A DNA stretch of 64,000 nucleotides from Eledone cirrhosa (Eukaryota): assembly GCA_964016885.1 (NCBI GenBank), contig CAXHJY010000726.1, forward strand, positions 11,870-75,869, read 5' to 3'. Position numbers and translations under genes: made by a program. The notes below the pieces were generated by a model, which had not been told where the DNA came from, did no database searches, and saw only the letters and a program-made list of their open reading frames with translations. Below, piece by piece: positions 20,471 through 63,953 of this stretch. The first letter of the stretch is position 1; every line of letters begins with the position of its first letter.

Positions 20471-20688
20471 TAACGAAGGAAATGTGGTAATGAACCAGGT
20501 GGACCATAACGCACCAAAGTACTCAATACTTAGGGTAGTAGAGTGGGTAATAGGAACGAGTAAAACCCCGACGGCTGAGCTCAAGCCGTTTCGACGGCTA
20601 ATTCTGGACTGCTAATTCGACGGCTAATTGAGTCCAGAATTAGCCGTCGAAACGGCTTGAGCTCAGCCGTCGGGGTCTTACTCGTTCC
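20471..20688. mobile_element. PLE family B terminal foldback in (TA)n
   Basis: 20471-20610 matches 14709-14845. 20631-20688 is an inverted shorter copy. (TA)n on both sides. Confidence 0.85.
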
Positions 20689-21256
20689 TATATATATATA
20701 TATATATATATATATATATAAATGAAAAGTATAGAAATTATTGTAGCAAGAAGCCAAAAGTATATATATATATATATATATATATATATATATATATATA
20801 TACATTTATATATATATATATGTATGTATGCATTGTGTGTGTGTGTATTCATCAATGAATAATCAAGGGGTGTGTAGAGGACGTAGCAAAGATGGCTGTG
20901 CCCCTGCATGGCTTTTTCCCCGAGGGCTGGAACAAAAAAAAAAAAAATATATATATATGTTATATCTGTTATATCTGTTATATGGTCTGCACCTCTTTTA
21001 GAGAGGAGCAGATCATACATTAATAGGTCTAAAAGTACAACTTTTATACAACTGATAAAAGTTTAAATTATCAATAACATCAACATTACTGATACTTACC
21101 AAAAACATGACCGGAATTTTTTATGAAATGCCATAATTCCCATAAGTACCTATTAAAATTTTGGAAATACCAGACCCGGGTTAAGCAGACTGGCATTGAC
21201 CTATTACACGCTTCCTATTAAGTAATTTATTTTATCATGTATATTCTCCACACTAA

Positions 21257-21567
21257 GGCGGCGAATTGGCAGAGTTGTTAGAACGTCGGATAGAATGCTT
21301 TATGGTATTCGTTCCGGGTCTCTGCTCTCTGAGTTCAAATCCCGCTGAGGTCAACTTTGCCTTTCATCCTTTCGAAGTCGATAGAAAAAGTACCGGTTTA
21401 GTACTGGGCCGATTCTTCCTCTCACTTTCTATCTTTCTCTGGAAGAATCTGCTGTACTCAGGCTTGGAGAGGGATGGGCTCCGCCTGGCTTGGAATGCGC
21501 AAGAAACGCAGCATGTCAGTCAATATGGCACCCTACAACTCTATCAGGAGTTACGGGACCATACATA
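21257..21567 (+). mobile_element. Nin/Deu-domain SINE, long-tail variant
   Basis: GGCGGCGAATTGGCAGAG..GAGTTCAAATCCCGCTGAGGTCAACTTTGCCTTTCATCCTTTCGAAGTCGATAG; tail shared with 2560-2870. Confidence 0.75.
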
Positions 21568-22114
21568 CATTCTCCAAAATACTTTATTGATATTATTCTG
21601 TTAAAGGCAGTGATTGGCGGAGTACTTAGGGCGTCGAACGAATGCTCACCAGAATTTCTTCCGGGTCTTTAGTTCAAATTCCAACGGAGGTTAGCTTTGG
21701 CTTTTATTCTTCCTGGGTTGATAAGATAAAATACCAGTAATCTACTGATGTTAGTATAATTGATTTTCCCTCTTCTCTTAAAACTGTTGGCCTCGTACTT
21801 AACTTAGAAACCGTCATTATTCTACTATCCCACGATGTATTTGTTTTCAAGACTTGAGTGAAGCTGTCTAGCTCAGCCAAGAGGGTTTAACTGAGCACTG
21901 ATGATCATGACGCATGACAGGAAACCATCCGTACTTCCTCCAAAATTATATAAGTTGAAATGTATTCATAGAATGTCGCTGATCGTATATTGTTCGATGA
22001 TTTACAGTCTTTTTAATACTATCCTTCGTAACATCGTTTAAGATTTACAGTCACACATCCACATACACAAATACACTCTCTCACACTCCTATACACACAT
22101 ATCTAACGTCTAAA

Positions 22115-22383
22115 GTCTGTCTTAAGCCAGAAGGCTCATTTGGCCGGTGCTTATCACGGTTTCATGGCGTGAAGCGACTGAGAGTACAAGACTCCCCCCT
22201 GGACAGGACGCCAGTCCATCGCAGGGTTAAACCTCCAGCTATTGCTGGTACTCATTTTCAGCTAAGTATACTGGAGCAACGTGAAATGAAGTGTTTTGCT
22301 CAAGAACACAACACGCAGCCCAGGAATCGAACCCACAACATTATGATCGTAAGTCCAACACTCTTACCACTAGGCCACGTGCC
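22115..22383 (-). mobile_element. tRNA-derived SINE with V-domain-like segment
   Basis: Minus strand reads GGCACGTGGCCTAGTGGTAAG..GGTTCGATTCCTGG..GTTCTTGAGCAAAACAC..TGCGATGGACTGGCGTCCTGTCCAGGGG. Partial copies at ~35895-36015 and ~38525-38630. Confidence 0.8.
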
Positions 22384-60176: not shown

Positions 60177-62190
60177 GTAATAATAATAAATTTGAAGACT
60201 AAAATCCAAAGAGGGCTCGATAAGGATAAATATATATCAAATATATAAGAACCGTAGAGCAAATATTTATTAAAATAACAGATTAAAGTTTAAGCAAAGA
60301 ATCGCTGCTTTCACCCTTAACAGGATCTTCTGAAACTAACAAAGTCAATCTGTAAACGCAGAACTGGATATTTCAAAAAACGTTGCGACCGGAAGAAGAC
60401 AGGAAGACGATACTTTGGTTCGTGGTAACGTTCGCTGGCGAAGAACGGGAAAAAACGAATATAATACGTCATTAATAGGAGCGGTGAAAAACAATTACGC
60501 GCAAAGACAGAACCACGTTTATGGTATAAAAGAGGTCGTAGACTAATGTTCTCTTAGGTGGTGCATAGAGACGTTCTCTGGCAATGAACGAAAAAAACGA
60601 AGATAATACGTCATATGAGGAGCGTGGAAAACAATAGCACGCAAAGACAAAACCACGTAAATGGTATAGCAGAAGTCGTAGACTAAAATTCTAACAAGGA
60701 GACCGAATGAATCTCCGCTACAGAGTTAAGAACAAAGTAAATAAATACAATACAGAAGTAATAGAAATAAATAAATACATACACGCAAACAAATACGTAC
60801 ATACACAAGCATACGCAAAAACTTACCATAGGTATACAAAACCACGCGCATATAAATATGTGTGTGTGTGTATGCGTGTATACAAATAAATTAATATATT
60901 TCTAAACGTATATAAATAAATAAATACATATATAACAAGCGCACACACATATCTACATGTAAATACACGAATGTTCGGAGACGTAATTCAACCAAAACAT
61001 GAAGTACACAATACACACACCCTACATACGTACGAACCTGCATACTCATACAGACGCAAAACTCCCGTATACACATAGCCAAACCATATGTACCAGAATA
61101 TATAAAATGATACGCCATAACAATCAAATATACGTACGAGAAGGTATACGTACCTTCACAAAACATACGGGTAATATATACTTACCTATGCAAATAAGTA
61201 AAGGTATAAACAAAACATATACTTAGCTCCCACATCAAGACGTAAAATATCCACGTATAGATCGTACTATCCGTTAGGGTATAACGTGGGGCTGTAATAC
61301 AGGAAAGTTTTGTGCAATTTATGTTTACAAGCCGAAATTGCCTCAGATTTTTTGTTTAAAATGTGGTCTGTGGCGTAGAGTATTTCCAGGGCCTCTGCGG
61401 CGCAGAGGTCACATGGTCTTTTATTTCCGTTATACGATCTAGCGCGAGCTAGGATCTCCCAGTGTAACTTATATTGGGTGTGGTTGTCTTTTAGACTCCA
61501 GATATAAGCTGAAAGTGACGTCATATTCCTTCTTAGAGGGTAACGAAAAGAATGGGCATGCATGTAAAGACGCTGCTTGAATCTATTGGCGGTTAACCCT
61601 ATGTAGGCCCTACGGGACGTGGGTGTTACAACATTACATTTGTAGACAACGTTACTAGAGAGGCATTTCCCGGATAGGGGGCAATCAACCCGATTCCTAC
61701 AATTACAGTTAGTACTAACTACAGGGTTGCACGTGTTCCTACGGCTAGGTAGTTTAGCTAAATTTGAAGCTGTGATGTTATGTGCAAGGTTAGGTGTCGT
61801 AGAGTAAGAAATTTTAATAGTATTTCTATTAAAAATTTTACTATAATGACGTATTATCTTCGTTTTTTTCGTTCATTGCCAGAGAACGTCTCTATGCACC
61901 ACCTAAGAGAACATTAGTCTACGACCTCTTTTATACCATAAACGTGGTTCTGTCTTTGCGCGTAATTGTTTTTCACCGCTCCTATTAATGACGTATTATA
62001 TTCGTTTTTTCCCGTTCTTCGCCAGCGAACGTTTCCACGAACCAAAGTATCGTCTTCCTGTCTTCTTCCGGTTGCAACGTTTTTTTAAATATCCAGTTCT
62101 GCGTTTACAGATTGACTTTGTTAGTTTCAGAAGATCCCGTTAAGGGTGAAAGCAGCGATTCTTTGCTTAAACTTTAATCTGTTATTTTAA
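60177..62190 (-). mobile_element. Penelope-like element (family A), 5'-truncated with inverted pLTR
   Basis: 60177-61842 is a reverse-complement homolog of 56314-57918 (CNCRNRVDCPLSGKC, ORF 61267-61563). 61843-62190 is an inverted copy of ~60270-60612. Confidence 0.92.
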
Positions 62191-62401
62191 TATATATATA
62201 TATATATATATATATATATATATATATATATATATATATATATATATATATATATATGTATGTATGTATATATATATATATATATGTGTATATATATATA
62301 TTTATATATATATATATATAATAATAATAAATTTGAAGACTAAAATCCAAAGAGGGTTCGATAAGGATAAATATATATCAAATATATAAGAACCGTAGAG
62401 C

Positions 62402-63473
62402 CGGATATAGGGGTCATCTCCCTTGTCTAATGCCATGTGCGTTTTTCACCGCTAGTTGACTCCTTTGCCGCCAGGATAAAACTCGTTGACAACGTAAACT
62501 CCGTTCCACTTATTCTAGTAGGCTTTTATATTTATATGTGAGCTGATAGAGTACTGTCTAAGGATTTACAGAAACCCATGAAGCTAGATTTAACACCTTT
62601 CTAGTGGGTCCGGGTATGATTTTACATTCATTTAAATTATTGACGTATTGTTTTATTGATATTTTTTATCTGTTTGGCCCGAATCTTCCTTTATCGATTT
62701 TAAATCGTATGGTTGATTGTAGACTTGTTCTATATGTGACGGTATTTTAACGATAGTTATAGCTCTGATTCATCTGAATTATTGAGCCCTCTGCCGCTCA
62801 TATCGAATTTCGTTTTTCGTGAACTCGTGCGCCGATTTTTCGATACTCGATCTTTCTAATATATTTAGCTCTGGACATAGCTATCCACCAGTTAATTTTA
62901 TTGCTCATTTTTTGTCGATTCTATTGAGTGATGAATAGCTTTTGTTTTATTTTAACATGTCTATTGAGCACTCTAATTCGATATGTGTATTTCCACATTC
63001 ACTCGAATTGTTTTCGCGGATATAGGGGTCATCTCCCTTGTCTAATGCCATGTGCGTTTTTCACCGCTAGTTGACTCCTTTGCCGCCAGGATAAAACTCG
63101 TTGACAACGTAAACTCCGTTCCACTTATTCTAGTAGGCTTTTATATTTATATGTGAGCTGATAGAGTACTGTCTAAGGATTTACAGAAACCCATGAAGCT
63201 AGATTTAACACCTTTCTAGTGGGTCCGGTATGATTTTACATTCATTTAAATTATTGACGTATTGTTTTATTGATATTTTTTATCTGTTTGGCCCGAATCT
63301 TCCTTTATCGATTTTAAATCGTATGGTTGATTGTAGACTTGTTCTATATGTGACGGTATTTTAACGATAGTTATAGCTCTGATTCATCTGAATTATTGAG
63401 CCCTCTGCCGCTCATATCGAATTTCGTTTTTCGTGAACTCGTGCGCCGATTTTTCGATACTCGATCTTTCTAA
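62402..63473. repeat. 615 bp tandem duplication (1.7 copies) fused to a PLE A end (62320-62401)
   Basis: Units start CGGATATAGGGGTCATC at 62402 and 63017 and are nearly identical. Confidence 0.92.
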
Positions 63474-63490
63474 TATATATATATATATAT

Positions 63491-63953
63491 AAAAGACGTA
63501 AAATATGAAAATTTTAAAAAATTTTTAAAAATTAACTTACTTACTAAAATTTTCACTCCAACTAATCAGTTTCTGCAATGCGATAAAGACAGTTACGTAA
63601 TAAACTGTCGAGAATTCATTGCGTCATCAGGGAGTCTATTCTCAGCTAAGTCTCCAGGCAATGCGCGGACACTGGGGACTCATATAAAAATAATAGACTC
63701 CTTATGACGCAATGAATTCTCGACAGTTTATTACGTAACTGTCTTTATCCCATTGCAGTAACTAATTAGTTGGAGTGAAAATTTTAGTAAGTAAGTTAAT
63801 TTTTAAAAAACTTTTTTAAATTTCTTATTTTACGTCTTTTATATTATTGTTCTGCATCCTCCTGCATTGAACCACCTAGGTACTATGACATAACCTGTGT
63901 ATTTGCTGGCATTAGCGTACATCTGTACGCATATGTTAGTAGATATACTAAAT
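63491..63953. mobile_element. PLE-type foldback carrying two hammerhead copies
   Basis: 63491-63640 is inverted at 63692-63841; the right copy continues ~110 nt. Confidence 0.8.
63555..63635 (-). ncRNA. Type I hammerhead ribozyme, canonical core, extended stem II
   Basis: Minus strand reads ACTCC-CTGATGA-CGCAATG..CATTGCA-GAAA-CTGATTAG-TT-GGAGT. Confidence 0.8.

What the first reader, a model, noticed from the sequence alone, without database searches (positions are those of the whole stretch)
20471..63953. Recurrent asymmetric foldbacks: the inverted arm stops at a fixed internal point while the primary end carries an extra tail
Seen in several unrelated families. Family A primary ends run to ...TTATTATTAC(TA)n, but inverted arms at 35428, 39988 and 62190 (and the end at ~48774) stop ~90 nt earlier at TGTTATTTTAA(TA)n. 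Family B: the arm stops at CTCGTTCC (20688), ~80 nt short of CCTTCGTTA. Family C: the arm stops at 41953 versus a ~160 nt tail (40048-40207). The same asymmetry appears at 51573-52031, 54909-56236 and 63491-63953. Both junctions fall in microsatellite, nearly always (TA)n. Established: inverted partial pLTRs and a short 3' tail are known for Penelope. Inference: each family has two defined reverse-transcription start sites (distal tail and an internal site just 3' of the ribozyme), used to prime opposite strands of a cut (TA)n target.
Basis: partly seen in the sequence, partly recalled or inferred. Interest (0 to 1): 0.7.

Follow-up and report, generated by a model that had tools for sequence, protein, structure and literature searches.

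The report
Penelope fold-backs pair two fixed ends
These mirror-image insertions are remnants of a known class of jumping gene (Penelope-like elements); across the genome the two halves almost always end at two different fixed points, which likely means that both sides of a DNA cut start copying the element's RNA, a mostly known pattern that is measured here in several families.

Summary
These are head-to-head insertions of Penelope-like elements (PLEs) in (TA)n: Hydra clade or Hydra-like (A, B, C, D, G) and Neptune type (E). In genome-wide samples each family has two sharp 3' ends, internal (I) and tail end (T): 613 of 663 ends. Of 194 classifiable pairs, 187 carry one of each (about 50% expected). 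The 'primary arm = tailed' part fails: the tail is on the longer arm in 45, the shorter in 49, equal in 93. 'Just 3' of the ribozyme' fits only A and B. Partner arms share private variants (250 versus 63 expected). Both sites carry 3-7 nt of TA microhomology. Best model: both ends of a cut (TA)n prime reverse transcription, one at I and one at T, usually on the same source RNA, and the cDNAs join head-to-head. The one-sided tail on inverted pLTRs and two RT start sites flanking it are published (PMC3846280, PMC8557442, PMC11167929). This scan already noted the same pattern in other genomes. Modest additions: the quantified one-of-each rule, tails of 38-175 nt, target microhomology, non-coding tandem units following the rule, and one mixed-family pair.

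The parts
14709..16522 (-). Family B subfamily, long 5'-truncated copy with RT/GIY-YIG ORF remnant and tail end
20473..20610 (-). Family B tailed arm (T end at 20473, tail about 80 nt)
20630..20688 (+). Family B tailless arm, I end; holds only the 3' half of the hammerhead-like motif
22887..22982 (+). Family B tail with a 4-nt inverted micro-arm, between (TA)n
   Evidence: sequence
35273..35429 (.). Family A fold-back: T arm on minus (35273-35407), I arm on plus (35404-35429)
35447..35662 (.). Family G fold-back (not listed by reader): I arm minus, 50-nt filler 35511-35560 copied in reverse from flank (about 35118-35167), T arm plus, tail 38 nt
39761..39988 (.). Family A fold-back: T arm minus, I arm plus
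40048..41953 (.). Family C fold-back: T arm minus (40048 to about 41688, interrupted), I arm plus (41695-41953)
48774..48898 (-). Family A solo arm ending at I, (TA)n on both sides
51574..52050 (.). Family D fold-back: T arm minus (tail 175 nt), I arm plus ending about 52050
52575..53055 (+). Family K solo arm with canonical hammerhead core (Rfam HH9 52854-52924, E 0.003, below gathering score); a T/I pair of K lies in L110
53290..53390 (+). Family B variant tail with a 9-nt inverted micro-arm
   Evidence: sequence
54910..56236 (.). Family E (Neptune type) fold-back: short T arm minus (54910-55050), long I arm plus (55072-56236)
56314..57918 (+). Family A single arm: GIY-YIG ORF end, 3' region, I site 57826, T end 57918
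58195..58445 (-). Family D solo tailed arm
60177..62190 (.). Family A fold-back: long T arm minus (60177-61845, ORF end 61267-61872), I arm plus (61846-62190)
62321..63473 (.). Mixed head-to-head pair: family A tail arm (minus, 62321-62401) joined to 1.75 units of the 615-nt tandem element J (plus), outer ends in (TA)n
63491..63953 (.). Family F (541-nt tandem unit) fold-back: longer I arm minus (63491 to about 63695), T arm plus, ending in (TC)n(TA)n

Best explanation
These are 5'-truncated head-to-head insertions of endonuclease-bearing Penelope-like retroelements in (TA)n, whose two arms end one at an internal site and one at the tail end, likely because both DNA ends of the cut target prime reverse transcription, one at each site. 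Shown: element identity, two sharp ends per family, one of each per pair, no link to arm length, shared variants between partners, TA microhomology at the sites. Inferred: a (probably dimeric) RT-GIY-YIG complex cuts both strands of (TA)n; each 3' end pairs through 3-7 nt with a UA-rich spot on the bound RNA; both cDNAs run toward the RNA 5' end, often reaching the transcript start inside the pLTR (hence the many 150-350 bp fold-backs); their ends are joined by short overlaps or fillers. One RNA offers one I and one T, which would explain the one-of-each rule; one-sided events give solo I or solo T arms in similar numbers.
For: Two peaks: I 302, T 311, other 50 of 663 deduplicated ends at or past position -40 in six families; 280 of 302 I and 275 of 311 T ends are followed by TA repeats. 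Pairs: I+T 187, I+I 4, T+T 3 of 194 (expected 50%; P about 1e-46). Tail on longer arm 45, shorter 49, equal 93. In 161 of the 187 pairs with enough overlap, partners share 250 non-consensus bases versus 63 expected and differ at 542 versus 879. Equal 5' extents exceed permutation in E (9 vs 3.8, P 0.002) and G (9 vs 2.8, P 0.0004). TA microhomology of 3-7 nt at 7 of 7 I sites and 3 of 3 T sites with known continuation (background of TAT/ATA 3-7%). 5' stops cluster at (T/C)AGT(T/C) words in A, B, E. Solo arms I 87, T 90. In vitro, a PLE protein cuts and extends both strands, starts RT at two sites flanking the tail, and is predicted to be a dimer (PMC11167929, main text read).
Against: All evidence is from fixed genomic copies. 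[quoted passage not shown] Equal 5' extents are not significant in A, C, D (P 0.14, 0.08, 0.49). Shared variants also fit two RNAs from one source locus, or conversion between arms. One mixed A+J pair and 7 same-type pairs show that one RNA is not obligatory; the 7 are too few to test for separate templates (two T+T pairs share 0 variants, one shares 8). Extra G before the B start word is only 9 of 15 in the unbiased set. 26 pairs with one unclassified end were set aside. Target duplications cannot be read in (TA)n. Samples are the best-scoring 40 hits per query, not a full census.
Confidence: 0.65

Rival explanations
1. One reading: a primary cDNA always starts at the tail end, folds back at its 5' stop and is copied to the internal site (or cut there), so the inverted arm is always the shorter and tailless one.
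For: Fits window pairs 60177-62190 and 40048-41953 and 45 genome pairs; explains shared variants and equal 5' ends.
Against: In 49 of 187 pairs the tailless arm reaches further 5', in 22 of them by more than 150 nt, including window E and F; a copy of a cDNA cannot be longer than its template.
Confidence: 0.07
2. Endonuclease resolution: a double-stranded inverted intermediate (for instance from self-priming on an antisense template) is cut by the GIY-YIG domain at two fixed places, and these ends are joined to the target.
For: PMC8557442 suggests the tail results from EN-mediated resolution; PMC3846280 proposes self-priming on antisense RNA; the tail is needed for EN recognition in D. virilis Penelope as cited in PMC11167929. 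It allows the tail on either arm.
Against: RT start sites coincide with the tail boundaries in vitro. Solo I and solo T arms are common and joined straight to (TA)n. The mixed A+J pair is not a self-primed product.
Confidence: 0.15
3. Same two-sided priming, but on two separate RNAs held by an asymmetric dimer whose protomers present different start sites.
For: Mixed A+J pair in the window; dimer predicted for PAc; arms overlap in sequence, which one RNA allows only with strand displacement.
Against: Only 1 clean mixed pair against 187 same-family pairs; equal off-hotspot 5' stops (for example -373/-380 in L294, -213/-220 in L055) suggest one template.
Confidence: 0.1
4. Tails are lost after insertion by deletion between the TA word at I and the flanking (TA)n of originally symmetric T+T palindromes.
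For: All I sites begin with TA microhomology.
Against: Longer TA runs inside the A tail are used in about 2 of 187 A ends; young copies 97-100% identical are already T+I; I+I and T+T are both rare.
Confidence: 0.03

Closest known systems
EN+ PLE insertions with inverted pLTR and one-sided tail (Pen2a_Av, PMC3846280; overview PMC8557442 Fig. 2; passages read)
   Same: [quoted passage not shown]
   Different: Published tails are 30-40 bp; here 38-175 nt. The passages read give no count of the one-of-each rule or of arm length; here 187 of 194.
Poseidon_Ac internal RT initiation (PMC11167929; main text read, supplements not seen)
   Same: Two start sites bracket the tail, both strands cut and extended, AT-rich target, hammerhead cleavage not needed (most B arms read through the cleavage point).
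   Different: That work reports no strand difference and no homology to the cut DNA; here ends are complementary within a pair and carry 3-7 nt TA microhomology.
Hydra-clade PLEs (PMC8557442 section 11, read)
   Same: Family A protein has RW(R/K), DKT, CxCX5C, CxxC and CxH, lacks CCHH; (TA)n targeting.
   Different: Unit 3.26 kb, slightly above the usual <3 kb; hammerhead-like motifs are non-canonical (U3-A8 in B; degenerate in A, D) or not found (C, G), whereas the paper reports canonical ones.
Non-LTR retrozymes (bioRxiv 10.64898/2026.07.22.740005, parts 1-2 of 5 read)
   Same: F (541 nt) and J (615 nt) form non-coding tandem arrays at dispersed loci with hammerhead-like words.
   Different: F shows the same I/T ends and inverted pairs as coding PLEs; hammerhead cores are non-canonical and untested.
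L1 twin priming (recalled; paper not retrieved)
   Same: Two target ends priming on one RNA to give an inversion.
   Different: L1 inversions use a variable internal site and mostly non-overlapping segments; here both sites are fixed and the arms overlap.

Membership tests
EN+ Penelope-like elements | Single ORF with RT and C-terminal GIY-YIG | tested here: met
   E: Pfam RVT_1 E 5e-10 and GIY-YIG E 3e-6. A: 713-aa ORF with YRDD and IVY..YI(G/W)LT motifs by inspection, no Pfam hit. B, C, D, G: tblastn to A, 31-52% identity.
EN+ Penelope-like elements | Partial tandem forming pLTR, tail continuing into the ORF start | tested here: met
   A: tail end reads on into the ORF start 49 nt later in L244-L246; E read-through in L200/L287.
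EN+ Penelope-like elements | Inverted 5'-truncated copy with tail at one end | tested here: met
   187 of 194 pairs.
EN+ Penelope-like elements | Hammerhead ribozyme in the pLTR | tested here: inconclusive
   B U3-A8 variant found by pattern scan; K weak Rfam HH9 hit; A, D, E, F degenerate by eye; none in C, G; no hammerhead among the 150 rows shown of 249 Rfam matches on 7 loci.
EN+ Penelope-like elements | Target-site duplication | not testable with these tools
   Junctions lie in (TA)n of variable length.
Hydra clade | RWK, DKT, CxCX5C linker, CxxC/CxH, no CCHH | tested here: met
   Family A protein against the definition; CxCX5C also in B, C and G-associated loci, degraded in D.
Hydra clade | Placement in RT phylogeny | not tested
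   No reference set on hand.
Neptune clade | CX2-5CxxC linker before GIY-YIG | tested here: met
   Family E protein has C-x4-C-x2-C upstream of the endonuclease; no tree made.
Non-LTR retrozymes (F, J) | Non-coding tandem units at dispersed loci | tested here: met
   F 541-nt array on C28; J 615-nt arrays at 7 places on C1.
Non-LTR retrozymes (F, J) | Intact type I hammerhead in each unit, self-cleavage | tested here: inconclusive
   Core-like words only; scan found no complete motif; activity not testable.

The most novel reading that the evidence does not exclude
PLE integration is an obligately asymmetric twin-priming reaction: both ends of the cut (TA)n pair through 3-7 nt with two fixed UA-rich sites on one capped RNA, across Hydra and Neptune clades and their non-coding retrozyme-like derivatives, with tail length (38-175 nt) set by RNP geometry and occasional capture of a second, different RNA on the other end.
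Probability: 0.45. Interest if true: 0.6.

Novelty: new member of a known kind. Interest (0 to 1): 0.33.

Why it matters
How PLEs build their inverted ends and one-sided tail is named as open in PMC8557442, and second-strand steps remain unvalidated in PMC11167929. A 96% one-of-each rule that is independent of arm length excludes the simple fold-back model and gives a sharp prediction for the existing in vitro system. The pattern itself is known and this scan has met it in other genomes, so the gain is quantitative support and extension to long-tailed Hydra-type families, not a new system.

Tried and rejected
Rfam on the window and on 7 loci: microsatellite noise, one weak HH9 hit at family K. 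Pfam on window ORFs and the A protein: no PLE hit. RNA runs: no RNA holder listed, so no reads were laid. The idea that the B junction is the ribozyme's own stem II hairpin was dropped once long copies showed the true upstream sequence. The fold-back at 23506-24161 was tested as another family: relatives are old (76-86%) and do not end in (TA)n at that point, so it is an inverted duplication of an old repeat, not a T/I pair. Family F census failed because hits fell mostly in one tandem array; only 3 pairs seen. J ends could not be classified as I or T (no loci). Micro-arms at 5' junctions of solo copies are occasional (6 complementary, 2 same-type of 109 with TA nearby). Flank-templated fillers are rare (2 of 22 fillers of 12 nt or more, one convincing). 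5' stop analysis was uninformative for C, D, G (homopolymer variation). Literature searches: searches found no paper stating the one-of-each rule with twin priming for PLEs; subscription papers and supplements (notably Fig. S2 of PMC11167929) were not seen.
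Full report
Observation. In each, one arm runs to a tail end (T) and the other stops at an internal site (I); outer junctions are in (TA)n. The D end is about 20 nt from the quoted 52031, and 48774 is a solo arm. 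The window lies in G000, a 3.0-Gb assembly.

Identity. Long genomic copies of A give a 3260-nt unit with a 713-aa ORF that starts 49 nt after the tail end, so the tail is the element's own continuation from pLTR towards the ORF. The protein has RWR, DKT, CxCX5C, CxxC and CxH and no CCHH, the diagnostic set of Hydra-clade PLEs, which insert into (TA)n (PMC8557442 section 11). B, C, D and G-associated loci match it at 31-52%. E has RVT_1, GIY-YIG and a CX4CxxC linker, Neptune type. F and J are non-coding 541- and 615-nt tandem units, like non-LTR retrozymes. No tree was built, so clade names rest on motifs.

Test 1, endpoints. Queries ending upstream of I were used for A, C, D, E, G and B (the B query includes the 3 shared letters after I), plus one tail-containing A query; 120 places were extended to 8-10 kb. 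Each search scores only the best 40 candidates, so this is a sample. Deduplicated alignment ends at or past -40: A I 79, T 95, other 13; B 91, 104, 30; C 28, 28, 1; D 32, 23, 3; E 37, 34, 1; G 35, 27, 2. Many B 'other' ends are divergent subfamilies. 280 of 302 I and 275 of 311 T ends are followed by TA repeats. Tails are 92, 80, 167, 175, 38 and 38 nt.

Test 2, pairing. One search listed 246 head-to-head clusters. Set aside: 23 with neither end classed (22 in family E, mostly artefacts of an A fragment inside the E reference), 26 with one end unclassed, 2 segmental duplicates and 1 complex cluster. Of 194 left, 187 are I+T, 4 I+I, 3 T+T; independence predicts 50% (P about 1e-46). Two more T+T candidates seen by eye (L046, whose plus arm reads on into the ORF; L065 at the locus edge) would give 187 of 196; counting all 26 unclassed as failures as well gives 187 of 222.

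Test 3, which arm is tailed. T arm longer in 45, I arm longer in 49, within 20 nt in 93 (P 0.76); for differences over 150 nt, 31 versus 22 (P 0.27). The window itself has counter-examples: E (T arm to -103, I arm to -1188) and F. 'Primary = tailed' is therefore not supported, and a cDNA that folds back on itself cannot be the general source.

Test 4, template. In 161 of 187 pairs with enough overlap, partners share 250 non-consensus bases against 63 expected and differ at 542 against 879. Equal 5' extents exceed permutation in E and G, marginally in B (P 0.011), not in A, C, D. This fits one RNA or sibling RNAs from one source; conversion is not excluded. One mixed pair (A tail arm plus J, 62321-63473) shows two templates can occur.

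Test 5, the sites. The element's own continuation matches the TA repeat for 3-7 nt at all 7 I sites (A, B, C, D, E, F, G) and all 3 T sites with known continuation (A, E, F); TAT/ATA background is 3-7%. Longer TA runs inside the A tail are rarely used, so microhomology is not sufficient. Relative to hammerhead-like motifs, I lies 17 nt after the predicted cleavage in B, at the end of stem I of a U3-A8 variant (that covariation is described in PMC4209133, passages), about 19 in A, 57 in K, 97 in F, 125 in D (by eye), with nothing convincing in C and G. I is not the cleavage site, and most B arms read through it. 5' stops cluster at TTAGTC in B (mode 15 of 65 unbiased arms, 9 with an extra G), TTAGTT in A (21 of 31 arms that depart within 21 nt) and TCAGTT region in E; these resemble initiator words (recalled), suggesting that both cDNAs often reach a capped RNA start inside the pLTR.

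Mechanism. Most likely (0.65): two-strand cutting of (TA)n, priming from both ends at I and T, cDNAs joined head-to-head (168 two-piece junctions: 76 overlaps of 2 nt or more, 41 flush, 51 with fillers; local alignment inflates overlaps). Rivals: endonuclease resolution of an inverted intermediate (0.15), two RNAs on an asymmetric dimer (0.10), single fold-back (0.07), later tail deletion (0.03).

Known versus new. PMC3846280 describes a tail optionally present on one of the inverted pLTRs; PMC8557442 says it is at either end and often only one; PMC11167929 maps two RT starts to the tail boundaries and shows both strands cut and extended. Searches found no paper stating the one-of-each rule. 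Eight earlier notes of this scan report the same layout in other genomes (unchecked, not counted as support). What this window adds is the count, arm-length independence, tails up to 175 nt, target microhomology, extension to tandem non-coding units and one mixed pair. Verdict: real, largely known; new members of a known kind; interest 0.33.

Noticed in passing
window 62321-63473: Family A tail arm joined head-to-head to element J, a 615-nt unit that forms perfect tandem arrays at several loci; suggests two different RNAs in one insertion event.
   Followed up: partly
G000:C28 about 8.80-8.96 Mb (L154-L180, L330): Large tandem array of the 541-nt family F unit, with a hammerhead-like core; retrozyme-like satellite.
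   Followed up: partly
window 35511-35560: 50-nt filler between family G arms is the exact reverse complement of flank about 35118-35167.
   Followed up: yes
window 23506-24161; L358: Inverted duplication of pre-existing repeat DNA around a TA-rich centre; a similar flank duplication sits next to a B insertion in L358.
   Followed up: partly
window 48601-48686; L254, L328, L340: A different repeat carries a fixed 50-nt piece of the family A tail (positions +6 to +55) with the same junction at four places; resembles a Helitron-type end (recalled, untested).
   Followed up: no
window 63953-63988; L152, L153: Family F tail ends abut (TC)n, matching the element's own TCTC continuation; D tail ends show (TG)n or (TC)n; hints at RT stuttering at initiation.
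   Followed up: no
L042/L221: Rare third family A end 46 nt past the tail end, at the ORF start (ATCAT|ATAT), paired with an I arm.
   Followed up: no
window 3945-8239: Degraded non-LTR element with endonuclease-like and RVT_1 ORFs (Pfam E 2e-18).
   Followed up: no
window 44487-45575, 46201-48704, 50520-51572: Remnants of another non-LTR element and a 1.1-kb inverted repeat pair at 91% identity.
   Followed up: no
window 21244-21414, 26329-26556, 30011-30225, 32786-32997, 33932-34613, 40946-41373, 44011-44399: Abundant SINE-like short repeat family, often inserted into (ATT)n within PLE arms.
   Followed up: no
window 35272-35738, 39761-41986, 54870-58445, 60120-63988: Chains of different PLE families nested end to end, each using the (TA)n left by its neighbour.
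   Followed up: partly
L327: Intact 834-aa ORF resembling the family A N-terminus, upstream of a D arm; family assignment not resolved.
   Followed up: no
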